DNA from: Gallionella sp.
GTDB lineage: Bacteria > Pseudomonadota > Gammaproteobacteria > Burkholderiales > Gallionellaceae
Direction: 5' to 3'
Assembly: GCA_028699065.1 (NCBI GenBank)
Contig: JAQVVH010000004.1
Coordinates: 1,589 to 65,588, forward strand
Length of the DNA: 64,000 bases
This document shows, piece by piece, positions 38,433 to 55,187 of the stretch. Below the pieces are notes generated by a model. The model saw only the letters and a program-made list of their open reading frames with translations, made no database searches and was not told the DNA's origin. Position 1 is the stretch's first letter, and each line of letters starts with the position of its first letter. Both the position numbers and the translations under genes were made by a program.

Positions 38433-41400
38433 ATGGCTGATCCGCTCGACCTGCTGGCCGGAGATGCTGGCCTCGACGTAACACAACCGGTAGCGGGAGC
38501 TGACCTCCTCGCTGACCCCAACGCGCCCGGCCCCTTCGCGCGTGGCGTGAAGTCCGGCGTCGCCGGCGTCAAGGGGTCACTCTATGGCATGGGCGCCCTC
38601 GCCGCACGCGGCGCCGCGAACGTGCTGCCGGCGGCCGCTGCCCCCGTCGCCACAGGTCTCGAACAGGCGGCACTGGAGAACGTCGCTGCGCAGAACGAGA
38701 TCGCCTCACAGGGCGCCATGTCGTTCGAGGATGTCGTCGCCGACCCGTCGCGTGCCGGTGAATACTTCAAGTTCCTGCTGGGCAACGCCGTGCCATCGCT
38801 CGCTGCCATGGCAACTGGCGGTGGCATCGGTGCCGGCATCGGCGCGCTGGCGGCTCGCGGCAGCGCGGCAGCCCTCACCGCGCGAGCGCTGGGTGCCGTC
38901 GCCCCCGCCGTTCGCACCGGCGCCCTCGTTGGCGCCGTCGCCCCTGACTTCGCACTGGAAGCCGGCAGCATCTACCCCGAAGCCCTCAAGACGGGCGTGG
39001 AGAACCCCGCCCTGCGCTCCGTCGCCGGCGGCGCAGCAGCCGCAGCACTTGACTTCATCCCCCTGCTGGCGGCCGAGAAGTATCTCAAACCCATCGGTGC
39101 CGGCGGCATCGGCGCGCTGGCCAAGGGCGCACTCAAGGGTGCTCCCGTCGGCGCTGCATTGGAAGGCACCCAAGAGGCGCTGCAGTCCGTTGTCGAACGC
39201 GGGGCTGCCGGTAACTCGCTGACCGATCCGGCGGCCGTCAGCGACTACATCAACTCATTCGCCGGCGGCGCAGCGCCTGGTGCCATGTTTGGTGCCGGCA
39301 TCGGTGCCCGCCGTCAATCTGTGGCACCGGCAGCAGTCCCGCCTGTAGCAGAAACTGCTCCAATCGTTCCAGATTCCGGCATGATCGTACCCGATTCGGG
39401 AACGCCTGCGCCAGCGAGTATCACTCCCGAAGCCCTGCATGCCGACCTCACAGCGCAGCACGCCGCCGCGACGCAGCAGGTCACGGATCACACTGCCCTG
39501 CTCGGAACCCTCCAGCAGGCGCAGGCAGAGGGCGAAGCGAAGATCAAAGCACTGGCAGCCGAGGCCAAGCTGCCGCCCGGTGAGCGCCGTATCAAGAGCG
39601 AGATCCTCGCCGAGAAGAAAGACATGGCCGCCCAGGTCAAGGAAGTCAAGGCCAAGATCGAGGAAGTCGGTGGCCAGTTGAACGCCGCGCGCACCACGAT
39701 TGGCACCCTGACCCCCCAACTCGAAGCCGCGCGGCAGGCGTTGCCGCCCGCGCCCCTACCCGAAGGCACGGTACCCGACCTAGTCCAGCCCGAGATCACC
39801 CCCCGCGCCGCGCCGGTGGTATCCGACATCATCGCCGACCCGAACCTGCCGCCGCCAACCCCCGCCGAGCAGACCGACCGCGCCGTGAAGGGTGTCCACG
39901 CCCTGTTCCGCGAGCAGGGCATGCCGCTGACCACAACCGAGGAGAGCCTCGCTACGCCGCCGCAGACCCCTCGTGAGGTCGCGCTGGCCAAGGTTGAGCA
40001 ACGCCAGCCCCGCGAGTCCGTACCGCAGGCCAGCCCTGCCCAGATGCAGGCCATCGAGGCCAACGCCATGTCGGTGATCGAGCCGCTGGCCAAGACGATG
40101 GCGGCAACCAAGACGAAGACGCCCGAGGCGCAGGCCAAGGTCGCGGCCAAGCTGGCCAAGGCAATGCGCGGCGTGGTGCAGGAGGCCGCCAAGCAGGGGT
40201 CAATCGAAGCCGCGCAGCAGTACGTTACCGACAAGTTACCCAACGCTCTGAAGGGCCACGGCGTAACTGCCGACGCCACCGACATGGCCAAGGCCGTGAA
40301 CGCCGGCGTCGGGCTGGCGCGGACGCTGTACTCGAAGGGGGCGACTAAGCCAGCTACGGAGGTATCAAAAGAACAACTAGGAGCCGCGTTCGGATACTTT
40401 GACCCCAGCACAGGGAATACATATGTGCGCGAGGATTTACCGCCAGCAGTGAAGCGGTTCGTCTCCGCGCACGAGGCGCACCATGCCACGCAAGATCCGG
40501 AGTTCATGAAGAAACACCCCGCGCTGGCTGAGATAGCGGCATCGGTGTTCCCTGGATTCAAAGACCCCATTGGGCTGATGGCGACAATGAAGGCGTCGCT
40601 GACTCCTGAACGGCTGAAATTCTATTTGGATCGGGTTCGCGGTGAACAGAACTCCCGCGCCGCCCTAACGCAAGACGAGTTCGACGCCCTGCCCGAACCC
40701 GCGCAGTTCGCCGCCGTCGACGCCTACAACCGCGTCATGCGCGCCAAGGGTACCGCGCTCCGGCAGCGCATGGCCCAGCTCATCGGTGACCGGCCAGAAC
40801 TCAAGATCATGACGTTCTCGGCGACGCCCGACAGCCCGATCGGTTCCTACACTCGCACCGGCCCACTGAAGGCTGCCATCTCTATGGCGCTGAACGCCAA
40901 GGAAGGCCTGAGCGTCGCCGACCACGAGGGCTACCACTTCGCTGAGGACTGGCTACTCACCCCCGGTGAGCGTCGCGTCGCCGCCAACGCACTGAAGGCC
41001 GGCAAGCCGCTCTACACCCAACTGGTCGCCCGGCTCCAGCAGTACGACCGCGAGAACGGCACCAGCCTAACCGACGAAGTCACAGCGATCCCGGCAGAAG
41101 CGCGGGCCTACGCCTTCGAGTTCTGGCGGCGTGGCGAGTTCAAGGCTGACGGCGCACTGGCGAAGGCCTGGCAGAAGATCAAGACGTTCTTCGAGAGGAT
41201 TGTCAACGCCGTCAACGGTTTGGGTTTCCAATCGATCGAGGACGTGTTCGTCGCGCTGGATCGCGGTCAGATGGCGGAGCGGGAGATGGTGGCGGGCGAC
41301 GGTGGTGCGTTTCAGTCGGTGGCCGGCGGGCAGTCATGGTACCGCTCCGCACTGACCGAAGCCGTCGCCGGCATCCAGAGCCGGCAGGCCACCGCGCAGG

Positions 41401-44400
41401 GCTGGAAGGATCAGATCAAGGGGCTGATCGCCAACGGCAAGGCGAAGCAGGTCGAACTCGACGCCGTGGGGCTGAACGAGTGGCTGGACCTCCAGCAGGG
41501 GAAGGTCACCAAGGATCAGGTGATGGCGTTCCTCGGTGAGAACGGCGTCCAGGTTCGCGAGACAATCCTGGGCAGCGCGATGCCGCAGGCGCGGCAGGAC
41601 GAGTATCAGCAGCGACTGCGAGACATCGAGGACATGCGCGACCTCGGTGGGCGGATATCTCACGACGAAGCCCGACGGCAGATCGACGCCCTGCAGCAGG
41701 AGTTCAAGGTTGGCGAGTATGGCGACCCCTTCGACAGTACCAAGTTCGCCGCCTACCAACTGCCGGGCGGCGAGAACTACCGCGAGTTGCTGCTGACATT
41801 GCCGGCGAAACAAGCTACGCAGTTCTTCATCGCGTACAAAGGCGACTCCACCATGGGTACAGGGTTCGCTACTAGGCAGGAGGCCGAAGCGGAACTGGCG
41901 GACACCTTCCCCGGCCGCAATGATCTGGAAGTCCGTGAGGGCACGGGGGATCGCAGCACGACGACGCGCACGCCTGAGAACTTCCGCTCCTCCCACTTCG
42001 ACCAGCCCAACATCCTCGCCCACATCCGCTTCAACGAGCGCACCGGCGCCGAAGGCAAGCGTGTGCTGTTCATCGAGGAGATTCAGAGCGACTGGGCGCA
42101 GAAAGGGCGGAAGGAGGGGTTCGCCAGCGCCGCGAAGCCGCTCAAGGATATAACTACAGAAGAACTGCGCGGCATACTGGCATCGCTGCCGCAGCCGACT
42201 GCACAAGAACGTGCGGAGAACTACGCTTCCGACTACGAGGCCTCGGCGGACGCTATTTTTGAACTGATCACTGCGAACCGTACTGGCGAACTGGAGGGAT
42301 ATGATCGCATAGATAGGACTTCCATTTTGCGCGATGTTCTGGTTGGCGATCATAACTGGACCGAGCAGGCAGCGAACACTCTTCAGCAGAAACTGGACGG
42401 CTACGGCGCCATCCGTGCGGGCACCCCCTCCGCCCCCTTCGTCACCAAAACCGAAGCCTGGACAGCCCTCGCCCTCAAGCGGATGATCCGCTACGCCGCC
42501 GAGAACGGCTTCGACTCGATCGCCTGGACAACGGGTGAACAACAGGCGGCGCGGTACGACTTGAGTAAGCAGGTCGACCACGTCGCGCACTACAAAGATG
42601 GCAGCGGGCATCTGCGAGTCGCTGTTCAGGGAATGAATGGCGAGGAGGTGTGGAACGCCTACGACCCCACACCGAAAGAACTTGAAGATACACTTGGCAA
42701 AGAGATAGCAGGGAAGATCGCGAACGACGAGGGTGCCGACTCAGGTGCGGGGGTCAAGATTCTTCGCGGGCTCGACCTCAAAGTCGGCGGCGAAGGCATG
42801 AAGGGCTACTACGACAAGATCGTGGTAGGCGTGGCCAACGACATCCTCAAGAAGCTGGGCGGCGGGAAGGTGGGGGAGGTCACGATCAACCAAGACCACG
42901 ACGCCAGCCAGAACACCGAGAAGGAGTGGGACGAAGGCGTAGCGCGCTGGCACCTGAAGCGCGGCGGTGAGATTTATGTCGTCGATAAGAACGGCATGGA
43001 AACGCGCATCAAGAACGAACTCACCCTGAACGCCGAACTCGATGAGAACGGGGCGCCGCGTGGGTACGTTCTGGGCGACACACAGGGTAGCAGCACCCAA
43101 CCCGGCTTCACCATCACCCCCCGCCTCGCCGAGAACGCTGCCAACGGCCTGCCGCTGTTCTCCAAGGCTGCCGTCGCCAAGGCCAACCGCATGGCTGCCG
43201 GCGAGCTGGAAGCCATGCAGTCCGGCGAGCAGTACGCGCACCTGATCGAGAACGCGAATCTATCCAATGATCTGTTCACGCGGGCCTTCGGCGTCGTCAA
43301 GGAAGACATCGTCGGCGGCCTCGGCCGGTGGTGGACGAACACCATGTCCACGCCGAACTACATCAGCGCGGCGTCGGCGGGCTTCAAGAACGTCTATCAG
43401 GCATTCAACACGTATAGCCGCTACCGCAAGATACTCGCCGAGCAACTGGTGCGCGAGCGGCTGCCGAGTTGGTATCAGGCGTCCGATGCCGACCGCAAGG
43501 CCGCCTTCGATGTCATGCTCAAACGCACCGTCGGCAAGTTCTCAACGAACTCACTGGAACTGGCTGACCTGCTGCGCACCCTGACCCCTCAACAGCGCAC
43601 GCTGTACGACCAGGCGACGGGAATGATCGCCGGCGTCCTGCAGCGCCAGTTCGAAAGCCAGAAGGTAGAGCGCCAGCGCCAGCTCACCAGCCCCGGTGCC
43701 TACGACAAGTGGCTCGCCCACCGGCAGGAACAGATGGCCAGCCTGCTCGACACCGGCTACGTGCCACTGCGCCGCTACGGCGACTACAGCGTGTCGGTGT
43801 ACATGGAGGCGCCCGACGGCTCGCGCGTGCAGGCCGGGCTGGAATTCTTCGCGTCACCCAGCGCGGCCAAGGCGGCATCCATCGCCTACGCCCGCGAGAT
43901 CGAACGCTCCGGCGTCGCCCTGAAAGTCGAGATGGGCCGCCGCAGCAAGAACGAACGCGATACCGGCGTGTCGCTGGAACAGTTCCTCGGCACCCTGCGT
44001 CGGCAGGGCGTCGATATCTCGCAGGCCGAACGCGAGCGGCTGGTCGTCGCCATGACCAACGCCGACTCGCTGGTGCGCACCCAGATGATGCGCCGCGAAG
44101 GCCTGGCCGGGTACTCGACCGACGGCATGCGTGTCCTGCATGAGTTCGGCGTCAACACGACGAGCGAGATCGCCTACGCGCGCTTCGCGCCGGTGCTGGA
44201 CGCCGCGCTGGACGGCGCCGAGGTCACGGCGGACGTCAACTCGGTGACGAGCGAGCCCGTCATCCAGATCGGTGAGGCATTCGGTCGCCGCGAGGACGGC
44301 GTCGAGAACAACCTGTGGAAGCGCGACGGCCCCATGTCCGGTTTCTATAAGGACCGCGCCAACGCCATGGCTGACACCACGCTGTCGCCCGACCGGCAGA

Positions 44401-46967
44401 GCGAGTGGGCGACCAAGCTGCGCACCGCCGGCGTGATGTACTTCATCGGCGGCTCGATCAGCGGCGCCGCCGTGAACACGCTGTCGATCCCCATGGTACT
44501 GGTGCCGCGCCTGTCGCTGCACACCGACTACCTGAACGCCTCAATGACCTCGCTCAAGGCGTGGAAGGACTCGTGGCAGCACTACAACGTCCTGCGCGAC
44601 ATGGACAGGATGAAGAACCCCGACGCCGAGACCGCGGCGAAGCTGGACGCCGCCGGCATTACTAAGGAGATGCGCGCCTCCATCGTCGCCGCCGCCGATC
44701 ACATCTTCGACACCGAGATCCACCAGATGCTCGGCATCAGCCAGGGCTCGCTGTACTCCAAGAGCCGCAACGTGCAGCGCGCCGCCGAGGCGTGGATGGC
44801 ACCGTTCCGCGTGGCAGAACAGACCAACCGCTTGGCGTCGTTCATCGCCGCCTACAAGGTCGCCACCACTGGCGACGGTGTGAAGCAGGCCGATGGCACG
44901 TTCAAGCGACTCAGCGGGCAGGAACTGTTCCGCTTCGCAGGCGAAATGGTCGACGCTACGCAGAACAACTACAACGCCTGTGTAGACACCGACACAGAGT
45001 GTCTGACTGAAAAAGGCTGGCGCCGGTATGATGGGGTCAAAGCAGGCGACACGTTGTATGGAGTAGATCACGAAGGCGGGCTGGTCGAGACTATAGCGCG
45101 CCAAGTGAATGTGTTCCCCGGCGCACAACCCATATTGCGGTTCCGAAACGGGCGGAAGTTCGAGATGGTAGTGACGGAGAACCATGACTGCGTAGTTCAA
45201 AACTACAACAGCCGCGATAAGAAGTGGCAGAAGGTGCGGAAAGTTCCTGCAGGACATATTAAGCATAGCCACCACATGCTTCGGTCCCCGCTGCATGGGG
45301 AACTCGCTCGCGCAGAGACATATAGCGACGCCTTTGTGGAACTTCTAGGGTGGGTAGCGTCTGAAGGGTCATATGGAAAACTGACTACCCCAGGGCAGAT
45401 TGGCGATGTGAAAATATCACAGAGCCGAAGCCACAATCCGCAATATGTGATAGCGATAGAGTCCCTGTTGCAAGTGTTGGGCATGAAATATCGGAGGTAT
45501 GACAATCCGCATAAGGAGCACCCGAGCGGGCGCCCGCACGACATGGTCACTTTCACCATACAGGCGCCGGACTCGTGGAGAATACGAGAAGCGCTTCCGG
45601 ATAAGCGCGTAACCCCTGCGTTCGTGCGGAATCTCACAACCCCGCAGATGGCGTTGTTCTTGGCGTCGTTCACGCAGGGGGATGGGCACATCCCGCTCGT
45701 TGCCGGCAGTGGGCCGGTAATTACACAGAAATCACAGGAGACAATTGACGCGTTGCAGATGATGGCCACGCTGGCTGGGGTCACGTCTACGACGCATAAG
45801 GCGGCCGGGTTGGATTGGCACACCTTGTATTTGGGGGTAGCATCCAAACGCAGTCATATGCGTGCTATGCAAGTGACCAAGGGGGAAGTCGATACTGTGT
45901 GGTGCCCGACTACTGGTTGTGGCACATGGATCGCGCGGCGTAACGGGCGGGTGTTCGTGACTGGGAATTCAAATCGCCCGGGCATCATGAACAACCCGGT
46001 CGGTGCCCTGATGTTCCAGTTCAAGTCGTTCCCGCTGTTCATTATCGAAGCCGCGGCGCTGATGTATAAGCAGAGCCCGAAGTCCGCCGTCTACATGCTG
46101 CTGGGCCTCGTCGCGATGTCCGGCGTGCAGGGTCTGCCGTTCGCCGAGGAGATACTGAACCTCGTCGACGTCATCTCGCAGCGCCTGTTCGGATCGCCGT
46201 TCAACAGTCGCCGCGCCATGCGCAACGCCATCAAGACGGCATCCGACGCCGTTGGCGTCATGGACCTGTCCAACGCCGTCATGCGCGGCATGGTCAATGA
46301 GATCACCGGAGTCAACATCGCTACCCGGGTGTCGGGCGGCCTCCTGCCGGGAACGCGCATCGGCGCCGCCGACGCCACCGAAGGCCGTGTGCTGTCCGAG
46401 ATCGCCGGCGCCCCGTTCTCGATGGTGCAGGACACGATGAGCAACGTCGGCGGGTTCGTCAGCGGCGTCGCCACGGGCGACTGGCAGAAGGCGGCAGACG
46501 CCCTGCGCGCCGGCGGCCCGATCGCTGTGCGCAACGCCGTCAAGGGTGCCGAGCAGCTCAGTCAGGGCTACGCCAGCGACTCCAAGGGGCGGAAGGTCGC
46601 CGACGTGTCGACGGTGGACGGCCTGCTGCAACTGACGGGGCTGTCGTCCGCCGCCGTGCAGAAGATGAACGACATGCAGAGCATCATCATCCAGACCAAG
46701 GCGTTCCACACGCAGGTCAATCAGGACATGCAGAACCGCCTGGTCAAGGCCTACCGCGACGGCGACCAGGAGCGCATCCGCGAGACCCTCGACTTCGCCG
46801 CCAAGTGGAACGAGCAGAACCCGGCCATGCCGATCCTGCCCAACCCGTCGGCGCTGCGCCGCCAGATCGCGCTGGCCGGCATGCCGCTGAACCGTCGCGA
46901 GCAAGTGATGCTAGGGCGCCGGCTGGGCGGCGCGTTCGCCGATGTGACAGACCAGATGGCGGAATGA
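38433..46967 (+). CDS. Giant polyvalent virion/ejection protein with two HExxH modules, a PLxRFG-like motif and an intein
   Basis: 2844-aa ORF; HEAHH, HEGYH, FIEEIQSDW and YVPLRRYGDY motifs; intein at codon 2183. Confidence 0.75.
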   Translation: MADPLDLLAGDAGLDVTQPVAGADLLADPNAPGPFARGVKSGVAGVKGSLYGMGALAARGAANVLPAAAAPVATGLEQAALENVAAQNEIASQGAMSFEDVVADPSRAGEYFKFLLGNAVPSLAAMATGGGIGAGIGALAARGSAAALTARALGAVAPAVRTGALVGAVAPDFALEAGSIYPEALKTGVENPALRSVAGGAAAAALDFIPLLAAEKYLKPIGAGGIGALAKGALKGAPVGAALEGTQEALQSVVERGAAGNSLTDPAAVSDYINSFAGGAAPGAMFGAGIGARRQSVAPAAVPPVAETAPIVPDSGMIVPDSGTPAPASITPEALHADLTAQHAAATQQVTDHTALLGTLQQAQAEGEAKIKALAAEAKLPPGERRIKSEILAEKKDMAAQVKEVKAKIEEVGGQLNAARTTIGTLTPQLEAARQALPPAPLPEGTVPDLVQPEITPRAAPVVSDIIADPNLPPPTPAEQTDRAVKGVHALFREQGMPLTTTEESLATPPQTPREVALAKVEQRQPRESVPQASPAQMQAIEANAMSVIEPLAKTMAATKTKTPEAQAKVAAKLAKAMRGVVQEAAKQGSIEAAQQYVTDKLPNALKGHGVTADATDMAKAVNAGVGLARTLYSKGATKPATEVSKEQLGAAFGYFDPSTGNTYVREDLPPAVKRFVSAHEAHHATQDPEFMKKHPALAEIAASVFPGFKDPIGLMATMKASLTPERLKFYLDRVRGEQNSRAALTQDEFDALPEPAQFAAVDAYNRVMRAKGTALRQRMAQLIGDRPELKIMTFSATPDSPIGSYTRTGPLKAAISMALNAKEGLSVADHEGYHFAEDWLLTPGERRVAANALKAGKPLYTQLVARLQQYDRENGTSLTDEVTAIPAEARAYAFEFWRRGEFKADGALAKAWQKIKTFFERIVNAVNGLGFQSIEDVFVALDRGQMAEREMVAGDGGAFQSVAGGQSWYRSALTEAVAGIQSRQATAQGWKDQIKGLIANGKAKQVELDAVGLNEWLDLQQGKVTKDQVMAFLGENGVQVRETILGSAMPQARQDEYQQRLRDIEDMRDLGGRISHDEARRQIDALQQEFKVGEYGDPFDSTKFAAYQLPGGENYRELLLTLPAKQATQFFIAYKGDSTMGTGFATRQEAEAELADTFPGRNDLEVREGTGDRSTTTRTPENFRSSHFDQPNILAHIRFNERTGAEGKRVLFIEEIQSDWAQKGRKEGFASAAKPLKDITTEELRGILASLPQPTAQERAENYASDYEASADAIFELITANRTGELEGYDRIDRTSILRDVLVGDHNWTEQAANTLQQKLDGYGAIRAGTPSAPFVTKTEAWTALALKRMIRYAAENGFDSIAWTTGEQQAARYDLSKQVDHVAHYKDGSGHLRVAVQGMNGEEVWNAYDPTPKELEDTLGKEIAGKIANDEGADSGAGVKILRGLDLKVGGEGMKGYYDKIVVGVANDILKKLGGGKVGEVTINQDHDASQNTEKEWDEGVARWHLKRGGEIYVVDKNGMETRIKNELTLNAELDENGAPRGYVLGDTQGSSTQPGFTITPRLAENAANGLPLFSKAAVAKANRMAAGELEAMQSGEQYAHLIENANLSNDLFTRAFGVVKEDIVGGLGRWWTNTMSTPNYISAASAGFKNVYQAFNTYSRYRKILAEQLVRERLPSWYQASDADRKAAFDVMLKRTVGKFSTNSLELADLLRTLTPQQRTLYDQATGMIAGVLQRQFESQKVERQRQLTSPGAYDKWLAHRQEQMASLLDTGYVPLRRYGDYSVSVYMEAPDGSRVQAGLEFFASPSAAKAASIAYAREIERSGVALKVEMGRRSKNERDTGVSLEQFLGTLRRQGVDISQAERERLVVAMTNADSLVRTQMMRREGLAGYSTDGMRVLHEFGVNTTSEIAYARFAPVLDAALDGAEVTADVNSVTSEPVIQIGEAFGRREDGVENNLWKRDGPMSGFYKDRANAMADTTLSPDRQSEWATKLRTAGVMYFIGGSISGAAVNTLSIPMVLVPRLSLHTDYLNASMTSLKAWKDSWQHYNVLRDMDRMKNPDAETAAKLDAAGITKEMRASIVAAADHIFDTEIHQMLGISQGSLYSKSRNVQRAAEAWMAPFRVAEQTNRLASFIAAYKVATTGDGVKQADGTFKRLSGQELFRFAGEMVDATQNNYNACVDTDTECLTEKGWRRYDGVKAGDTLYGVDHEGGLVETIARQVNVFPGAQPILRFRNGRKFEMVVTENHDCVVQNYNSRDKKWQKVRKVPAGHIKHSHHMLRSPLHGELARAETYSDAFVELLGWVASEGSYGKLTTPGQIGDVKISQSRSHNPQYVIAIESLLQVLGMKYRRYDNPHKEHPSGRPHDMVTFTIQAPDSWRIREALPDKRVTPAFVRNLTTPQMALFLASFTQGDGHIPLVAGSGPVITQKSQETIDALQMMATLAGVTSTTHKAAGLDWHTLYLGVASKRSHMRAMQVTKGEVDTVWCPTTGCGTWIARRNGRVFVTGNSNRPGIMNNPVGALMFQFKSFPLFIIEAAALMYKQSPKSAVYMLLGLVAMSGVQGLPFAEEILNLVDVISQRLFGSPFNSRRAMRNAIKTASDAVGVMDLSNAVMRGMVNEITGVNIATRVSGGLLPGTRIGAADATEGRVLSEIAGAPFSMVQDTMSNVGGFVSGVATGDWQKAADALRAGGPIAVRNAVKGAEQLSQGYASDSKGRKVADVSTVDGLLQLTGLSSAAVQKMNDMQSIIIQTKAFHTQVNQDMQNRLVKAYRDGDQERIRETLDFAAKWNEQNPAMPILPNPSALRRQIALAGMPLNRREQVMLGRRLGGAFADVTDQMAE
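44979..45968 (+). mobile_element. Intein (330 aa) with in-frame LAGLIDADG endonuclease
   Basis: C1 CVDTDTECLT..GW, block B VTENHDC, LLGWVASEG and FLASFTQGDG, terminal WCP...VTGN followed by Ser; codon usage differs from the flanks. Confidence 0.92.
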
Positions 46968-46976
46968 TACAATAGA
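46965..46976 (+). promoter_or_regulatory. TGATACAATAGA extended -10 motif, copy 3
   Basis: Identical 12-mer; TGA is the stop of the upstream gene. Confidence 0.6.
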
Positions 46977-46990
46977 ATGAAAGGCCTACC

Positions 46991-47578
46991 ATGAGCTGCG
47001 ACACCACCATTGACTTCTGTGTGCGAACCGGCGCGACGTTCGAGGCGGTGTTTCAGTGTGCCACCGACGAGCTCACGACAGTCGCGATCACGGCCATCAC
47101 CAAGGCGGCACCGCCAGTCATCACGGCAGCCGCGCATGGCATGCCCGACGCCTGGGAAGCCGCGGTCGTGTCCGCTGGTGGCATGACCCGCATCAACGCC
47201 GAGAACTACCCGCCCCGCGGCCGGGACTGGAAGCGCGCCCGCGCGGCATCCATCAACACGGTCGAGCTGTCCGACTGCAACTCGGCAGGGTACTCTGCCT
47301 ACACCTCGGGCGGGTTTCTGGTGTACAGCACGCCGAAGTCGCTGGCCGGCGCGACGGCGCGAATGGTCATACGCGATGCCCCGATCGACGGCACCGTGCT
47401 GGCGACACTGACCAGCAGCCCGGCGGCAGGCCTGACCGTCAACGACTCAGCCAAGACAATCACGGCGGCGCTGGCAACCGCTGCGCTGACGTGGAGCACC
47501 GGGTACTACGATCTCGAAGTGACGGACTCGGCAGGCGTCATCACGCAGCCGGCGACCGGCACGATAACCATCACTTAG
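46991..47578 (+). CDS. Putative tail-associated protein
   Basis: R.GATF N-terminus, AITAITKAAPPVITAAAHG segment, YYDLEV C-terminus typical of tail accessory proteins. Confidence 0.55.
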   Translation: MSCDTTIDFCVRTGATFEAVFQCATDELTTVAITAITKAAPPVITAAAHGMPDAWEAAVVSAGGMTRINAENYPPRGRDWKRARAASINTVELSDCNSAGYSAYTSGGFLVYSTPKSLAGATARMVIRDAPIDGTVLATLTSSPAAGLTVNDSAKTITAALATAALTWSTGYYDLEVTDSAGVITQPATGTITIT

Positions 47579-47587
47579 GAGGGCATC

Positions 47588-47635
47588 ATGGCACTGACCG
47601 GATACAAACCCGCGCGAGATAAGCAATGGGCATGA
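47588..47635 (+). CDS. 15-codon mini-ORF coupled to the fibre gene
   Basis: AGGAGG RBS, MALTGYKPARDKQWA; stop forms an ATGA overlap with ATG 47632. Confidence 0.35.
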   Translation: MALTGYKPARDKQWA

Positions 47636-49200
47636 TGACAGTTTGGAGAGGTAGCACAGCGAGCCCCACCACCCTCGACGACGCAGTGCTGTACGCCCCC
47701 CGCACATCCTCAATCACTCAATCCCGAGGCTCCGGCACGCCTACAATTACCCGAGCTACTGTGGCGACGGTCACGAACAATGACGGCTATCTGGTCACTG
47801 CGCTGTCAGGAGAGTTGAGACAGCAGGGGGCGATGCGGATTGCAAGTCGGATATTTGGCACCAGCGAAGATTTAAGCAATGCCACGTATTGGAAAGGTGC
47901 TGGCGCGGCGACACTATCAGCCTCTAAAACGGTTACAGCCCCGAATGGCGCGGCTAACGATGCTTGGGCTATAACCGTGACGGGCGGAGCAGCGACTCGC
48001 GGATTCGGAAATAACAACAACACAAACTGGGCCGCTGGCGCAATAGCCCAAGCAAGCATCTGGTTGAAAGTTCCATCCGGGACGGTTGCAACCAATTTGT
48101 CAGCACAAGGATCAGATGTCGCAGGGAACGCAGCTATAACAATAACTACCACGTGGCAACAATTTTCTGTTGGGGCGCAATCAGTCGGCGGAAAGCTGAA
48201 GTGGCCGGTCTTAGTAAACGGTGGAATTACAGACGGCCAAATCATCCATGCGTGGCATCCGATGTGCGTCGACATCACCGGCGAAAGCGACCAGAGCACG
48301 ATCAGGCCGTATGTCAGCGTAGGCGTTCTCTCAGCCCCTTATCACGGCGCAGGTGTTGATGGCGTCAAGTACTTCAACACTGACATATCCGGCAATCCCA
48401 TCCCCGCTGCAACGCTTGATGGCAGTGTGGTAGAAGCAGCGGCGACACAGTATCTCGGCGTGACAGGAACCCCAGCTACGCAGACTACAGCAAGCCTTGG
48501 AACTGGAACCTACACGCTCTGGTGCGAAGGAACAGGAAGCTGTATCGCCTCTGCTGGAACTGCGACGATCACAGGCGCTGCGGCGGCTTCTGCAGGCGCT
48601 CCAGATCAATTCGAGGTCACTGTCGCCGGTACTGTAACGGTTACGGTCACTGGTAGTCTGACCACGTTCAACCTGACCAATACCCCCTATCAGACAAGCT
48701 ACATCCTGAACGCCGGAGCGGCAGGAACAAGCACGACCCGCAACAAAGATGTCCTCGACGACCAAGTATCCGGCAACCTGACAGCCGCAGCCGGTAGCGT
48801 AGCTTTCCAATGGACGCCATCACACGCACCGAGTGGGACTATTGCTCTTGCTGGCAGTTATGTGGATGCGAGCAACTACACCGCACTGCTGCATGACGCC
48901 ACGAAGTACATATTCCGCAAGCGTATCGCAGGAACGAATTACGACGCTGAACTGACTGCTGCTTTCGTCTCCGGCACAACCTACAGCATCGCTCTGACGT
49001 GGGGGGCATCCGGTTCTAACCTCGTTGTAGATGGCGTGCTAGGAACTCCTCACGCGAACACTACCGCTGCTCAACTCGGCACCCGCTGGCAATGGGGTGC
49101 TGATGGTAATGGCGGACAGCAGGCAGGGGCGTGCTTCAAGGAGAAGTATCTCTGGGCGCGCGCATTGAGTGATTCCGAAATGCAGGCGATTACTTCGTGA
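47626..49200 (+). CDS. Fibre/spike protein with lectin (LamG-like) C-terminus
   Basis: TITRATVAT, TSYI...TTRNKD motifs of phage spike-fibre domains; likely start at 47632. Confidence 0.6.
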   Translation: MGMMTVWRGSTASPTTLDDAVLYAPRTSSITQSRGSGTPTITRATVATVTNNDGYLVTALSGELRQQGAMRIASRIFGTSEDLSNATYWKGAGAATLSASKTVTAPNGAANDAWAITVTGGAATRGFGNNNNTNWAAGAIAQASIWLKVPSGTVATNLSAQGSDVAGNAAITITTTWQQFSVGAQSVGGKLKWPVLVNGGITDGQIIHAWHPMCVDITGESDQSTIRPYVSVGVLSAPYHGAGVDGVKYFNTDISGNPIPAATLDGSVVEAAATQYLGVTGTPATQTTASLGTGTYTLWCEGTGSCIASAGTATITGAAAASAGAPDQFEVTVAGTVTVTVTGSLTTFNLTNTPYQTSYILNAGAAGTSTTRNKDVLDDQVSGNLTAAAGSVAFQWTPSHAPSGTIALAGSYVDASNYTALLHDATKYIFRKRIAGTNYDAELTAAFVSGTTYSIALTWGASGSNLVVDGVLGTPHANTTAAQLGTRWQWGADGNGGQQAGACFKEKYLWARALSDSEMQAITS

Positions 49201-53051: not shown

Positions 53052-55187
53052 TCATTCTACCGCAGATCGGATGCGGGCGAGGGCGATGTCGAAGTAGCCG
53101 TGTTCCTCGTCTGAGTCGATCCCCACAAACCCGAAGCCCTCCTTGAGCGCAGCCTTGCCAGTCGAGCCTGAGCCCATGAAGGGGTCGAGGACCGTGCCGC
53201 CTGGCGGCGTGACGAGGCGGCAGAGGTAGCGCATGAGTTCGGTCGGCTTCACGGTGGGGTGGTTATTCTTGACCTCGCGGGCCTTGTTGAACGCGCCGCC
53301 CTCTGCCGCGACAGTGTTGCCCCGCGCCGCCTCGGCTGCGGCTTGGCATGATCGTGCCAGAATCTTGTTGGGCTCCGCGTCCATCCCCTCGTTCCGATCC
53401 TTCTTACTTGTCTTGGCGCAGTAAAAGAACCGCGCGGCGCTGCCCGAACCCGAGTCGTGCGGCGTCCGTGGCCCGCCGAAGTATTCGCTCTTGCCCGTGC
53501 CGACGGCGCCGTCGCCATACCCTGTGATCTTGACCTGTGGCAGCGACCCACCTGACCCGTTGCTGTCGGGGAACAGGGCGAGCACCTCGTCGCTGCCGTC
53601 GTGGCAGAAATTTGCCGGCCATCTACCCTTGCTGCTGTCGAAGTCGGCGTCGGTACTCGGCTCGCCGAAGGTACTGCCTTGGGTCCGCTGCGCGGTGGCG
53701 AGCCCATACTCCGTGCGTTCGCGGCCCTCGACCCTGCACCCGTCAATATTGATCGCCCCCGTGCCATGCTGCTGCACGTTCGCTGCCACCGTACCAATCA
53801 GAGGCTTGCGGGCTACGATGACGGGCTCGAAGGCAGGTTTGAGTGCGGTACCCCAGCCTTCCCACTGCTTCGCGGCTTCGGTTGCTGGGGCGGTTAAGTC
53901 CGCTGACGTGCCTGCGAATTTACCGAGTGAAGTCGCGTCGTTCTTTGGGGTTTGTTGTGCGGCGCGGGGGTTGATGCCTACCGCCTCCCGCTCCACCCCC
54001 GCCGCCTTGTCGATCGCCTTGCTCACATCCAGCGACTTCGGAAACCCGGAGTTGCCAGTGAGAAACACCTTCCCGTTCCGGCGGGCGACGAACGCGCCGG
54101 TGCTGACGGTAGGGCAGAAGATCAGGCCAGTGTATTCGATGGGGGTAACAGTTGCCAGAGTGGTTTGATAGCTTGGCCGTGTTCGTACCGCTTGTGGCCT
54201 GCGTTCGACGCAAACAGCATCAGGTTCTCCAGCCGGTTGTCCGTCGCGTCGTGGTTGATGTGATGTACACACTCGCTGCGCGACAGCGGTCGCCCCATCT
54301 CCATCGCCACAATCAGGCGATGCTCCATGACGTAGCCATCCTTGCGGGCCATGTCCATGAACGCTACAGGACAACGAACGTACTTGATGGACTGGTTCGC
54401 GTACTTGCCCTTCCGTTTGAAGTAGGTCAGCCCGCCCTTCCATGCCGGGTTCTTCGGGCCAGCCATCCCCTTGCCGGGGCACTTCTTGCCCCTGCCGTTC
54501 GCCGAGTGCAGTTTCAGCCAGTCCTTCGCCTTGCCGCTGCACTTCCTCGAACAGTAGCGCCCCACGTCCTTGCGATAGTGCAGAAAGATCGCCTTGCAAA
54601 TACGGCACGTACTCCACGCCAGCGCATTCTTCTGCCGCCACGAATGCAAGGATTCCGCTTCGTTCAACAAGGCAACGATGGTTTCGACTGACGATCTGGT
54701 CCGTCGTATCTGACTCAATGTGATAGGCGGTATCTTGCTCGACACGATATTCAGACCACCGCTCGGGGTTCTCCCATTGGTAAACGTCGGTTTGAGGATC
54801 ATACGCCAGAATCTCCTTTGTTCTGGCTACATGGTAGCGTTCCCACCCATCTCTTGTCAACATCTCGGTGTCCTCGCTCAGGCACCCATACACCCACATG
54901 ATCGTGTCGCGGATCTCCCACCCGGCGTCCTCAATCGCTACCATCAGCCGGTGGAACGTGCGGGTGCCGCCGAACGCCAGAAGGTGAGCGCCTGGCTTGG
55001 CAACGCGCAGCGCCTCGACCCAGAACTCCTTGCCCGGCACGCCGTGGTCCCACCCTTTGCTCATGAAGTTCAAGCCGTATGGCGGGTCGGTCACGACGGC
55101 GTCGACGCTGTCAGCATCCATGGCACGCATGGCGTCGCGGCAGTCGGCGTTGATCAACAGCGCGGGTCCGGCTTCTTCGATTCTCAC
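53052..55187 (-). CDS. N4-cytosine/N6-adenine DNA methyltransferase (beta class) containing an intein
   Basis: TDPPYG, HPTVKP, LDPFMGSGSTG; extein junction WVYG/SGFPKS. Confidence 0.92.
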   Translation of the reverse strand: MRIEEAGPALLINADCRDAMRAMDADSVDAVVTDPPYGLNFMSKGWDHGVPGKEFWVEALRVAKPGAHLLAFGGTRTFHRLMVAIEDAGWEIRDTIMWVYGCLSEDTEMLTRDGWERYHVARTKEILAYDPQTDVYQWENPERWSEYRVEQDTAYHIESDTTDQIVSRNHRCLVERSGILAFVAAEECAGVEYVPYLQGDLSALSQGRGALLFEEVQRQGEGLAETALGERQGQEVPRQGDGWPEEPGMEGRADLLQTEGQVREPVHQVRSLSCSVHGHGPQGWLRHGASPDCGDGDGATAVAQRVCTSHQPRRDGQPAGEPDAVCVERRPQAVRTRPSYQTTLATVTPIEYTGLIFCPTVSTGAFVARRNGKVFLTGNSGFPKSLDVSKAIDKAAGVEREAVGINPRAAQQTPKNDATSLGKFAGTSADLTAPATEAAKQWEGWGTALKPAFEPVIVARKPLIGTVAANVQQHGTGAINIDGCRVEGRERTEYGLATAQRTQGSTFGEPSTDADFDSSKGRWPANFCHDGSDEVLALFPDSNGSGGSLPQVKITGYGDGAVGTGKSEYFGGPRTPHDSGSGSAARFFYCAKTSKKDRNEGMDAEPNKILARSCQAAAEAARGNTVAAEGGAFNKAREVKNNHPTVKPTELMRYLCRLVTPPGGTVLDPFMGSGSTGKAALKEGFGFVGIDSDEEHGYFDIALARIRSAVE
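54051..54884 (-). mobile_element. Intein (278 aa) in the methyltransferase
   Basis: C1 CLSEDTEMLT..GW, block B SRNHRC, terminal FCPTV...LTGN followed by Ser. Confidence 0.92.
54122..54802 (-). CDS. HNH endonuclease nested out of frame inside the intein
   Basis: CRIC..YCSRKC, KNPAWKGG, YVMEHR..MGRPL..E.VHHINH...DNRLENL; AAGGAG 10 nt before ATG 54802; true start uncertain. Confidence 0.85.
   Translation of the reverse strand: MILKPTFTNGRTPSGGLNIVSSKIPPITLSQIRRTRSSVETIVALLNEAESLHSWRQKNALAWSTCRICKAIFLHYRKDVGRYCSRKCSGKAKDWLKLHSANGRGKKCPGKGMAGPKNPAWKGGLTYFKRKGKYANQSIKYVRCPVAFMDMARKDGYVMEHRLIVAMEMGRPLSRSECVHHINHDATDNRLENLMLFASNAGHKRYEHGQAIKPLWQLLPPSNTLA

What the first reader, a model, noticed from the sequence alone, without database searches (positions are those of the whole stretch)
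44979..45968. Intein inside a giant virion/ejection protein
Seen in sequence: a 330-aa intein with LAGLIDADG motifs interrupts QNNYNA/SNRPGI near the C-terminus of the 2844-aa protein. Established: inteins are concentrated in nucleotide-binding replication, repair and packaging enzymes. Inference: an intein in a probable ejected structural protein is unusual. It marks this site as a conserved, functionally critical motif and may tie virion maturation to splicing.
Basis: partly seen in the sequence, partly recalled or inferred. Interest (0 to 1): 0.7.

Follow-up and report, generated by a model that had tools for sequence, protein, structure and literature searches.

The report
Mobile intein in phage ejection protein
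A real self-splicing, mobile protein insert (an intein) sits in the most conserved loop of the tail-end domain of a giant phage protein that relatives carry in the virus particle; this is a new host protein for a known kind of selfish element, and nothing suggests it controls virus assembly.

Summary
Window 44979-45968 encodes a 330-aa LAGLIDADG intein (Cys1, TENH, two endonuclease motifs, ...FVTGN|Ser+1) inside the 2844-aa ORF 38433-46967.

- **Empty site:** a 93-95% identical metagenomic relative lacks exactly these 990 nt.
- **Host domain:** removing the intein in silico turns a split PLxRFG (NF032893) match into one continuous match.
- **Fold:** an AlphaFold model (pLDDT 89) matches solved intein/homing-endonuclease structures (E 4e-15).
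- **Foreign origin:** the insert has GC3 of 63% against 91% in its flanks.

The host is a giant "polyvalent" protein. Its C-terminal domain is shared with Pseudomonas phage H66 gp60, which is annotated as mass-spectrometry-verified and was placed by others in the T7 gp16 (IVP-D) ejection-protein family. The domain has no recognisable NTPase.

The intein splits the near-invariant motif TQxxY-xxx-NRP. The same intein family sits in this motif in at least 28 further 50%-identity protein clusters. Its insertion point is staggered over four adjacent codons.

Inteins are already reported in phage portal, tape-measure and minor-capsid proteins, so "unusual" is only partly right. A role in virion maturation has no support. 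I file it as a new member of a known kind, of moderate interest.

The parts
38433..46967 (+). Gene for the 2844-aa precursor (2514 aa after splicing). It is a giant polyvalent virion/ejection-type protein with an Ala/Gly-rich N-terminus, two HExxH motifs and a C-terminal PLxRFG domain.
   Evidence: Single ORF. NF032893 scores 210 bits against a cut-off of 100. The gene sits in the late block after terminase, portal/adaptor and major head protein genes. It is syntenic with the intein-free relative L001.
40470..40937 (+). Two zincin-type HExxH motifs: HEAHH at 40470-40484 and HEGYH at 40923-40937. They are candidate polyvalent-protein metallopeptidase modules.
   Evidence: Positions. Pfam DUF6782 (putative metallopeptidase) gives E=2.7e-4 at 20.7 bits, below its 27-bit cut-off. 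The architecture matches that described by Iyer et al. 2017 (PMC5512222).
43755..44978 (+). N-extein part of the PLxRFG (tail-700) domain. It holds the name-giving motif PLRRYG (43764-43781), the EQTNR motif (44817-44831) and the N-side half of the split motif, TQNNYNA (44958-44978).
   Evidence: NCBIfam match on the in-silico spliced protein. Motif positions. Invariant columns.
44979..45968 (+). The 330-aa intein, made of a HINT splicing domain plus a LAGLIDADG homing endonuclease. Block A Cys1 is at 44979-44981. Block B TENH is at 45174-45185. LAGLIDADG motif 1 (LLGWVASEG) is at 45342-45368. LAGLIDADG motif 2 (FTQGDGH) is at 45669-45689. Block F VWCPTT is at 45897-45914. Block G FVTGN is at 45954-45968.
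   Evidence: (invariant C1, H69, E129, G130, D235, C309, T328, N330). GC is 55.7% and GC3 is 63%, against 65.2% GC for the rest of the gene and 91% GC3 in the flanks.
45969..45971 (+). The +1 Ser codon (TCA), first residue of the C-extein and the nucleophile for transesterification. The closest intein-free relatives have AAC (Asn) here.
45969..46841 (+). C-extein part of the PLxRFG domain. It holds SNRPG (45969-45983), the near-invariant FK of FQFKSF (46014-46031), a hydrophobic helical pair, and GVQGLPF (46122-46142).

Best explanation
**What it is.** A mobile class-1 intein with its own LAGLIDADG homing endonuclease has recently invaded the gene for the phage's giant polyvalent virion protein. 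It sits between the Ala and the Ser/Asn position of the conserved loop TQxxY-xxx-NRP. That loop lies in the C-terminal PLxRFG (IVP-D-like) domain.

**How it most likely works (inferred).**
- After translation the intein splices itself out. Cys1 makes the thioester, Ser+1 takes over the N-extein, and Asn330 cyclises. The result is the continuous 2514-aa protein reading ...TQNNYNA-SNRPG....
- Only that spliced protein is expected to be packed into the capsid and ejected with the DNA.
- At the DNA level the endonuclease part would cut intein-free alleles of related phages during co-infection. The intein would then be copied in by repair, dragging a few flanking bases with it.

**Shown here:** intein anatomy, intein fold, the exact empty allele, foreign base composition, the conserved target motif, and the spread of the same intein family through this motif in many divergent phages.

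**Inferred, not shown:** that it splices, that the endonuclease is active, and that the mature protein is in virions (this last rests on homology to H66 gp60).
For: **1. Anatomy**
- All catalytic positions are present and invariant across six homologues that are 28-44% identical: C1, block B (T/S)xxH, the LAGLIDADG acidic residues E129 and D235, terminal N330, and +1 S/T.
- The penultimate Gly is typical of phage class-1 inteins. A phage intein with penultimate Gly splices completely (PMC5050341).

**2. Fold**
- The model has pLDDT 89.3. Its Foldseek top hits are endonuclease-containing inteins.

**3. Precise empty allele**
- L001/P0003 is 93-95% identical in DNA and lacks the 990 nt.
- About 110 other relatives, 25-98% identical, read straight through the motif.
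- H66 gp60 is also uninterrupted there.

**4. Recent horizontal origin**
- GC3 is 63% in the intein against 91% in both flanks.
- 8 of the 15 nt at the junction differ from the empty allele, against about 6% divergence elsewhere. One of these is a whole-codon change, AAC to TCA, that creates the Ser+1 nucleophile. This fits co-conversion from a donor.

**5. Host domain restored by removal**
- With the intein removed, the domain gives one NF032893 stretch of 228.8 bits.

**6. Family-wide pattern**
- The 28 best of 3726 phmmer hits (38-53% identical) are all inteins in this same motif of PLxRFG-type proteins.
- Four more were found by word search.

**7. Virion context**
- The gene lies in the late block.
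- H66 gp60 is annotated as verified by mass spectrometry and was assigned to the IVP-D family (PMC4819975).
Against: - No experimental or read-level evidence of splicing or homing exists.
- Pfam's Hint/intein splicing models did not reach E of 0.01 or better. The PDB sequence search found nothing. Recognition therefore rests on homologues, the predicted fold and the empty allele.
- The canonical penultimate His and the usual block F Asp are absent. A Cys (C309) stands near the block F nucleophile position instead, so the exact chemistry could differ from textbook class 1.
- The junction substitution cluster was noticed after the fact, and the window used to count it was chosen post hoc.
- Virion location is by homology at about 25% identity, not measured for this phage.
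- The extein model is only moderately confident (pLDDT 68.5) and matched no solved structure, including T7 gp16.
Confidence: 0.85

Rival explanations
1. Conditional splicing as a maturation switch. The intein delays or gates production of functional ejection protein, for example through redox-sensitive cysteines, so that virion assembly or ejectosome competence depends on splicing.
For: - The intein sits 10 residues upstream of the most hydrophobic helical pair of the domain, in a near-invariant loop. An unspliced precursor would therefore very likely be non-functional.
- The intein has five cysteines, including C1 and C8.
- Phage inteins with non-His penultimate residues have been proposed to tune splicing rate (PMC5050341).
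Against: - Relatives 96-98% identical do without the intein, so it is dispensable.
- C8 is not conserved among the homologues; it is Cys in 3 of 6.
- The foreign composition, the intact endonuclease and the patchy distribution are the signature of a selfish element.
- The one tested penultimate-Gly phage intein splices fast and completely.
Confidence: 0.06
2. Decayed or non-splicing intein. The insert no longer splices and persists as a tolerated internal domain or has inactivated the gene, or only the endonuclease has decayed so that the element is fixed.
For: - It lacks the penultimate His and the usual block F Asp.
- Pfam's splicing-domain models do not reach threshold.
- The phage is known only as a metagenomic contig, so viability is unproven.
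Against: - All essential splicing residues and both endonuclease acidic residues are intact and invariant in the family.
- The reading frame is open over 990 nt.
- The insert breaks a motif that is invariant in more than 60 relatives, so a non-splicing insert should be lethal for the domain.
- The contig is a complete circular genome with an otherwise intact late block.
Confidence: 0.06
3. A Hint/BIL-type autoproteolytic module of the polyvalent protein. The domain cleaves the giant protein into two pieces, as zincin modules are proposed to do, rather than splicing.
For: - Polyvalent proteins are thought to be processed (PMC5512222).
- In F116 itself the homologue is split into two genes (PMC4819975).
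- The HINT fold also serves for cleavage in hedgehog and BIL domains; a hedgehog structure was among the fold hits.
Against: - The cut would fall inside a single conserved domain that is continuous in all intein-free relatives.
- A +1 Ser was specifically created at the junction.
- A terminal Asn and a full homing endonuclease are present.
- The Iyer et al. survey of polyvalent proteins does not contain the word 'intein'.
Confidence: 0.03

Closest known systems
Class-1 LAGLIDADG inteins of actinobacteriophages with a '...ARRNGxxF(V/I/L)TGN|S' C-terminus. Examples are the N6/N4 DNA methyltransferase intein of Mycobacterium phage ShiLan gp65 and the portal-protein intein of Gordonia phages Hail2Pitt and Woes (Kelley et al. 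2016, PMC5050341; bioRxiv 10.1101/2025.01.02.630785).
   Same: - Same signature: C(V/L)DxxTE.LT..GW at the start, (T/S)xxH in block B, and two LAGLIDADG motifs.
- Same (V/I)WC(P/V) in block F, penultimate Gly, terminal Asn and Ser+1.
- 27-29% identical over the full length.
- These inteins also sit in phage genes, including a structural one (portal).
   Different: - The host protein and insertion site differ: the PLxRFG/IVP-D-like domain of a giant polyvalent protein.
- The phage lineage differs: an F116-like podovirus at about 61% GC with proteobacterial-type relatives.
- I found no report of an intein in this extein.
PI-SceI (Sce VMA1), PI-PfuI and the Tli/Pho VMA inteins, which are solved intein plus homing-endonuclease structures.
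   Same: The two-domain fold (HINT plus LAGLIDADG) matches at Foldseek E 4e-15 to 1e-9, with TM-score about 0.6 normalised to the query.
   Different: - Only 10-17% sequence identity.
- Those inteins sit in ATPase or polymerase-type hosts and keep the penultimate His.
- This one is smaller (330 aa) and lacks the penultimate His.
Pseudomonas phage H66 gp60 (AGC34669.1, 3787 aa) and the other giant 'PLxRFG domain-containing' or 'DarB-like' virion proteins of F116-like phages. These belong to the extended T7 IVP-D (gp16) family of Hardies et al. 2016.
   Same: - Same C-terminal domain: NF032893 at 229 bits and tblastn E=2e-24.
- Same gene position at the end of the virion block.
- Same giant multi-module build.
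   Different: - H66 gp60 and all 47 matching phage records in the searched phage collection (INPHARED/GenBank) read through the motif without an intein.
- The middle modules differ. No methyltransferase or ART domain is detectable here.
Polyvalent proteins of phages and conjugative elements (Iyer, Burroughs, Anand, de Souza and Aravind 2017, PMC5512222).
   Same: - Giant late-gene protein with HExxH zincin-like motifs.
- Relatives carry ART-PolyVal, LPD, ddrB-ParB, RadC and MuF_C domains.
   Different: - That survey does not mention inteins.
- This member is enzyme-poor, and its only above-threshold Pfam hit is the intein's endonuclease.

Membership tests
Intein (class 1, endonuclease-containing) | N-terminal nucleophile (Cys/Ser) as the first residue | tested here: met
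   Cys1 at 44979-44981. It is invariant in 6 aligned homologues and present in all 29 family members inspected.
Intein (class 1, endonuclease-containing) | Block B TxxH motif | tested here: met
   TENH at residues 66-69. His69 is invariant and T/S66 is conserved.
Intein (class 1, endonuclease-containing) | C-terminal Asn followed by Ser/Thr/Cys at +1 | tested here: met
   ...FVTGN|S. N330 is invariant, and +1 is S or T in every family member.
Intein (class 1, endonuclease-containing) | Penultimate His (block G). This is common but not obligatory. | tested here: not met
   The penultimate residue is Gly in this intein and in its whole sub-family. Kelley et al. found Gly, Lys or Ser here in many phage class-1 inteins and showed that a penultimate-Gly intein splices completely (PMC5050341). 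This does not exclude membership.
Intein (class 1, endonuclease-containing) | HINT fold with an inserted LAGLIDADG endonuclease domain | tested here: met
   AlphaFold2 pLDDT is 89.3. Foldseek PDB hits are Tli/Pho VMA, PI-SceI and PI-PfuI (E 4e-15 to 1e-9), I-DmoI (2e-7) and the hedgehog Hint domain (4e-5). Pfam LAGLIDADG_3 scores 35 bits against a cut-off of 22.5.
Intein (class 1, endonuclease-containing) | In-frame insertion in a conserved host protein, with homologues that lack it and are colinear across the site | tested here: met
   The 93-95% identical empty allele L001 shows an exact 990-nt difference. About 110 intein-free relatives exist. NF032893 becomes one stretch after in-silico removal.
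Intein (class 1, endonuclease-containing) | Actual protein splicing (ligated exteins) and endonuclease cleavage of the empty site | not testable with these tools
   This needs a reporter assay, virion mass spectrometry or a cleavage assay.
Class 3 inteins (Tori and Perler) | No position-1 nucleophile, and a WCT triplet (Trp at B:12, Cys at F:4, Thr at G:5) | tested here: not met
   Cys1 is present and invariant. The residue two after the block B His is Cys or Ala, not Trp. An invariant Cys309 in block F (VWCP) and Thr328 at G:5 are nevertheless present. The block F numbering was aligned by eye only.
PLxRFG domain (NCBIfam NF032893, 'tail-700') | Score above the curated cut-off (100 bits) over most of the 681-position profile | tested here: met
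   210 bits in two stretches with the intein, and 228.8 bits in one stretch (profile positions 2-652) without it. The motif PLRRYG lies at residues 1778-1783.
Extended T7 IVP-D (gp16) internal virion / ejection protein family (Hardies et al. 2016) | Detectable homology to T7 gp16, phiRIO-1 gp37, epsilon15 gp17 or the N4 gp50 C-terminus, and presence in virions | tested here: inconclusive
   Direct homology was shown only to H66 gp60, which that paper places in the family and whose record says it was verified by mass spectrometry. Foldseek of the extein model found no solved structure at E of 0.001 or better. The C-terminus of JC1 gp69, a virion protein by mass spectrometry, does not match NF032893.
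Phage polyvalent proteins (Iyer et al. 2017) | Giant multi-domain late-gene protein with zincin-like MPTase and/or effector enzyme domains | tested here: inconclusive
   Size, gene position and two HExxH motifs fit. The only peptidase-like hit (DUF6782) is below its cut-off, at 20.7 against 27 bits. Close relatives carry ART-PolyVal and other polyvalent domains.

The most novel reading that the evidence does not exclude
**The reading.** This is one member of an undescribed intein lineage specialised on the ejection-protein motif TQxxY-xxx-NRP. The lineage has repeatedly moved its insertion point within a four-codon window, which I call 'intein sliding'.

**Evidence.**
- Homologous inteins (38-53% identical) sit directly after the Tyr, or one, two or three residues later.
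- The Tyr-to-NRP spacing stays constant at three residues, so the shift is real and not an alignment effect.
- The +1 Ser is created at whichever position follows the intein.
- On the intein tree the positions are intermixed. Well-supported branches force at least 3-4 changes for each of the two commonest positions.

**What it would mean.** It would be a protein-level counterpart of intron sliding. It would imply that homing into diverged targets re-sites the element. It would also mark these three loop residues as the only freely substitutable positions in an otherwise invariant functional loop of the ejection protein.
Probability: 0.45. Interest if true: 0.55.

Novelty: new member of a known kind. 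Interest (0 to 1): 0.45.

Why it matters
**For annotation.** Giant PLxRFG/"DarB-like" genes that look split, or that carry a puzzling "endonuclease domain", can be read correctly. At least 33 protein clusters in public metagenomes carry this intein.

**For intein biology.** It adds a host protein with no recognisable nucleotide-binding or catalytic fold. Kelley et al. found that all mycobacteriophage intein hosts bind nucleic acid. This host is at best a DNA-conduit protein.

**For phage biology.** Three facts together mark the loop TQxxY-xxx-NRP and the adjacent hydrophobic helices as the functional core of a widespread ejection-protein domain whose function is uncharacterised:
- the intein's insertion site;
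- a second, unrelated intein 16 residues downstream;
- the invariant residues around both.

This gives mutagenesis a precise target.

**For protein engineering.** Fast-splicing Ser+1 inteins with penultimate Gly are also of practical interest as tools.

Tried and rejected
- **Pfam Hint/intein splicing models.** No hit at E of 0.01 or better; only LAGLIDADG_3 matched. The NCBIfam scan of the intein alone found nothing.
- **PDB sequence search.** Nothing for the intein or for the whole protein.
- **Megablast of 43000-47000 against phage records.** No match.
- **Apparent extein overlap in tblastn hits.** The hits to Mycobacterium phage Pinkcreek gp135 and Synechococcus phage B23 gp289 seemed to extend into the exteins. 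On inspection the hosts are unrelated (a tail-region hypothetical protein and a T4 gp55-like protein), so the extension is spurious.
- **Burkholderia phage JC1 gp69.** I tested whether this mass-spectrometry-verified virion protein carries the same domain. Its last 1022 aa do not match NF032893, so that link rests only on the distant homology claimed in the literature.
- **Extein structure.**
  - The first alignment was too large for the tool.
  - The second gave a mostly helical model at pLDDT 68.5, with no Foldseek hit at E of 0.001 or better.
  - So there is no fold-level link to T7 gp16 or to any NTPase.
- **Class 3 intein mechanism.** Considered because of the invariant block F Cys and the G:5 Thr. 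Rejected as a filing because Cys1 is invariant and the B:12 Trp is missing.
- **Literature.** No paper joins inteins with PLxRFG, polyvalent or DarB-like proteins. There is no hit for "intein sliding".

Full report
**1. The observation**

ORF 38433..46967 (+) is a single 2844-aa reading frame. Residues 2183-2512 (window 44979-45968) read CVDTDTECLT ... VWCPTTGCGTWIARRNGRVFVTGN. They are flanked by ...VDATQNNYNA and SNRPGIMNNPVGALMFQFK....

The expected intein landmarks are all present (positions):
- Cys1.
- Block B TENH.
- Two LAGLIDADG motifs, LLGWVASEG and FTQGDGH.
- Terminal Asn.
- Ser at +1.

Pfam recognises only the endonuclease part (LAGLIDADG_3, E=1.7e-8). The splicing-domain models and a PDB sequence search were silent, so I looked for independent support.

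**2. Independent support that it is an intein**

- **Homologues.** phmmer against 1.84 billion representative proteins gave 3726 hits. The best reached E=9e-93. All are internal segments that begin with C and end with N followed by S/T/C.
- **Fold.** An AlphaFold2 model built on six homologues has pLDDT 89.3 and pTM 0.88. Foldseek places it with solved endonuclease-containing inteins: TliVMA, PhoVMA, PI-SceI and PI-PfuI at E 4e-15 to 1e-9. The endonuclease half alone matches I-DmoI, and the splicing half matches the hedgehog autoprocessing domain.
- **Empty allele.** Metagenomic contig L001 (protein P0003) is syntenic. It is 94.7% identical in DNA upstream (window 43098-44976) and 92.5% identical downstream (45972-47759). 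It lacks exactly the 990 nt, and its bases 10539 and 10540 are adjacent there.
- **Host domain restored.** With the intein, NCBIfam NF032893 (PLxRFG domain, "tail-700") matches in two stretches at 210 bits. After in-silico removal it matches in one stretch covering profile positions 2-652 of 681, at 228.8 bits.

**3. Is it likely to be active and mobile?**

*Conserved residues.* In an alignment of six homologues (28-44% identical) the invariant residues include C1, H69 of block B, E129/G130 and G234/D235/G236 of the two LAGLIDADG motifs, C309, T328 and N330.

*Penultimate Gly.* This departs from the textbook His but is shared by the whole sub-family. Kelley et al. (PMC5050341) reported that mycobacteriophage class-1 inteins often have Gly, Lys or Ser here. 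They also showed that the penultimate-Gly RDF intein splices completely, and faster than its Gly-to-His mutant.

*Composition.* The insert is compositionally foreign. Its GC is 55.7% against 65.2% for the rest of the gene. Its GC3 is 63% against 91% in the 990 nt on either side.

*Junction substitutions.* At the junction, 8 of 15 nt differ from the empty allele (GTG AAC AAC CGG CCC against GCC|TCA AAT CGC CCG), while the flanks differ at about 6%. The Asn-to-Ser change that supplies the +1 nucleophile is a three-base codon replacement. This looks like co-conversion of donor flanks during homing, and it would also destroy the endonuclease target. The counting window was chosen after seeing the data, so I treat this as supportive only.

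*Genome.* The contig is 65,804 bp with a 127-bp terminal overlap. That indicates a complete circular assembly of a phage genome, binned with a 1.96-Mb MAG.

**4. What the host protein is**

*Gene context.* The gene follows genes for terminase, portal/adaptor, major head protein and head-closure-like proteins.

*Relatives.* Word-based searching found about 120 relatives of 1600-4900 aa. Many carry ART-PolyVal, LPD, ddrB-ParB, RadC or MuF_C domains. These are the "polyvalent proteins" of Iyer et al. 2017 (PMC5512222).

*This member.* It is enzyme-poor. It has two HExxH motifs (HEAHH and HEGYH) and a sub-threshold DUF6782 metallopeptidase hit. A 500-aa region is shared with a Dolichospermum phage protein.

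*Virion evidence by homology.*
- The spliced C-terminal domain matches the giant proteins of F116-like Pseudomonas phages in one continuous piece. For H66 the tblastn E-value is 2e-24.
- The H66 record calls gp60 (3787 aa) a "structural protein ... verified by mass spectrometry".
- Hardies et al. 2016 (PMC4819975) placed the gp60 C-terminus in an extended T7 IVP-D (gp16) family. That family also includes the N4 gp50 C-terminus and epsilon15 gp17.

*What I could not confirm.* I could not reproduce the link to T7 gp16 by structure. The extein model is mostly helical at pLDDT 68.5 and matched nothing in the PDB. The C-terminus of Bcep22-like JC1 gp69 does not match NF032893.

That refutation criterion is therefore not triggered. 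Virion location is supported by homology only.

**5. The insertion site**

- Across 43-62 diverse PLxRFG domains there are only about 30 invariant columns. Four of them (Q, N, R, P), plus T and Y at 90% or more, make up TQxxY-xxx-NRP.
- A smoothed conservation profile puts this block among the eight best-conserved of the 800 C-terminal residues.
- In the model the motif lies in a loop between two long helices.
- The loop is about 10 residues upstream of the domain's most hydrophobic helical pair.
- Intein-free relatives read TQNNYNVNNRPG, TQNNYNESNRPG or TQFRYDEANRPA.
- H66 reads TQFVYSKASKMRW.

**6. The intein is not a one-off**

- Four proteins from the first search (P0087, P0090, P0091, P0092; exteins about 30% identical) carry 42-43% identical inteins in the same motif.
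- One of them lies in a prophage with siphovirus-type tail genes and an integrase.
- P0093 carries a different intein (28% identical, ending ...ITHN|T) 16 residues downstream, just before the invariant FK.
- In the exhaustive search, the 28 best hits (each representing a 50%-identity cluster) are all in this motif. Their C-exteins are 306-346 aa long.

So this is a lineage of inteins specialised on this domain. Neither the PLxRFG literature nor the polyvalent-protein survey nor the actinophage intein surveys mention it.

**7. An unexpected detail: staggered insertion points**

The insertion point varies among family members:
- directly after the Tyr: 14 members;
- one residue later: 2-3 members;
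- two residues later: 6-8 members, including this one;
- three residues later: 3 members, where Ser replaces the Asn of NRP;
- before the TQ: 1 member.

The three-residue spacing between Tyr and NRP is constant, so the shift is real.

On a maximum-likelihood tree of 29 inteins the positions are intermixed. Well-supported branches force at least 3 changes for the first position and at least 4 for the third. Only the fourth position forms a clade.

I found no paper using the term "intein sliding". I lack the DNA of these alleles, so I cannot say how the shifts arose.

**8. Comparison with what is known**

- The intein belongs to a recognisable phage family (C.D..TE.LT..GW ... WC(P/V) ... ARRNG..F.TGN|S). 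Other members sit in mycobacteriophage DNA methyltransferases, Gordonia phage portal proteins, a T4 gp55-like protein of a cyanophage, and a tail-region protein of Pinkcreek.
- The same phage carries a second member in its DNA methyltransferase gene (53052-55187, minus strand). It sits at the same site as in ShiLan gp65.
- Inteins in phage structural proteins are already on record: portal, minor capsid, tape measure and baseplate-like proteins.
- The kind is therefore known. What is new is the extein (PLxRFG/IVP-D-like domain of polyvalent proteins), the insertion site and the size of the lineage.

**9. Verdict**

- The best explanation is an ordinary selfish homing intein, recently acquired, that must splice out to restore an essential loop of the ejection-protein domain (confidence 0.85).
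- A regulatory role in virion maturation is possible but unsupported (about 0.06).
- Novelty: a new member of a known kind. Interest is moderate, at 0.45.
- The most useful by-products are the pinpointing of a functional loop in an uncharacterised, widespread domain and the staggered-site pattern.

Noticed in passing
window 53052-55187 (- strand): There is a second intein of the same family in the phage's N6/N4-type DNA methyltransferase gene: WVYG|CLSEDTEMLTRDGW ... IFCPTVSTGAFVARRNGKVFLTGN|SGFPKSLDVSKAIDKAAG. Its extein site is the same as in Mycobacterium phage ShiLan gp65 (AWLYG|CLTADTE...FITGN|SGFPKSMDVSKAIDKAAG). Its middle has no LAGLIDADG motifs and reads as low-complexity sequence. 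Another first-reader note says an HNH endonuclease is encoded there in an overlapping frame; I did not check that.
   Followed up: partly
proteins P0124-P0148, P0087, P0090-P0092, P0161 and P0173 (metagenomic relatives; no window coordinates): Homologous inteins occupy four adjacent positions between the Tyr and the NRP of TQxxY-xxx-NRP, and one position before TQ. The positions are intermixed on the intein tree. An unrelated intein sits 16 residues downstream in P0093. Together these make an intein hot spot with apparent 'sliding'.
   Followed up: partly
whole contig (genome.fa C8, 65,804 bp; the window is C8:1589-65588): The contig has a 127-bp terminal direct overlap, so it is a complete circular assembly of a phage genome. 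Its GC is 61.3%, while the rest of the 1.96-Mb bin is 51-57% GC. The binning with that MAG may therefore not reflect the host.
   Followed up: partly
window 41330-42880 against L001 5994-8460: The middle of the giant gene is mosaic relative to its 93-95% identical relative. Only short islands align (63-165 nt at 90-95%). The relative carries an ART-PolyVal domain that this protein lacks, and it reaches nearly the same total length (2845 against 2844 aa) without the intein. This is module swapping between conserved ends.
   Followed up: no
window 41328-42824 (protein residues 966-1464): About 500 aa of the giant protein has no family hit but is 26-29% identical (E=6e-43) to hypothetical proteins of Dolichospermum phage Dfl-JY45 and a Manatee Spring Caudoviricetes contig. 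It is a shared module of unknown function.
   Followed up: no
intein residues 308-310 and 328 (window 45900-45908 and 45960-45962): Cys309 (in VWCP, near the block F position used as the nucleophile by class 3 inteins) and Thr328 (block G position 5) are invariant, and Cys1 is invariant too. This is two-thirds of the class 3 'WCT' signature in an intein that keeps its position-1 nucleophile. The actual splicing route is open.
   Followed up: partly
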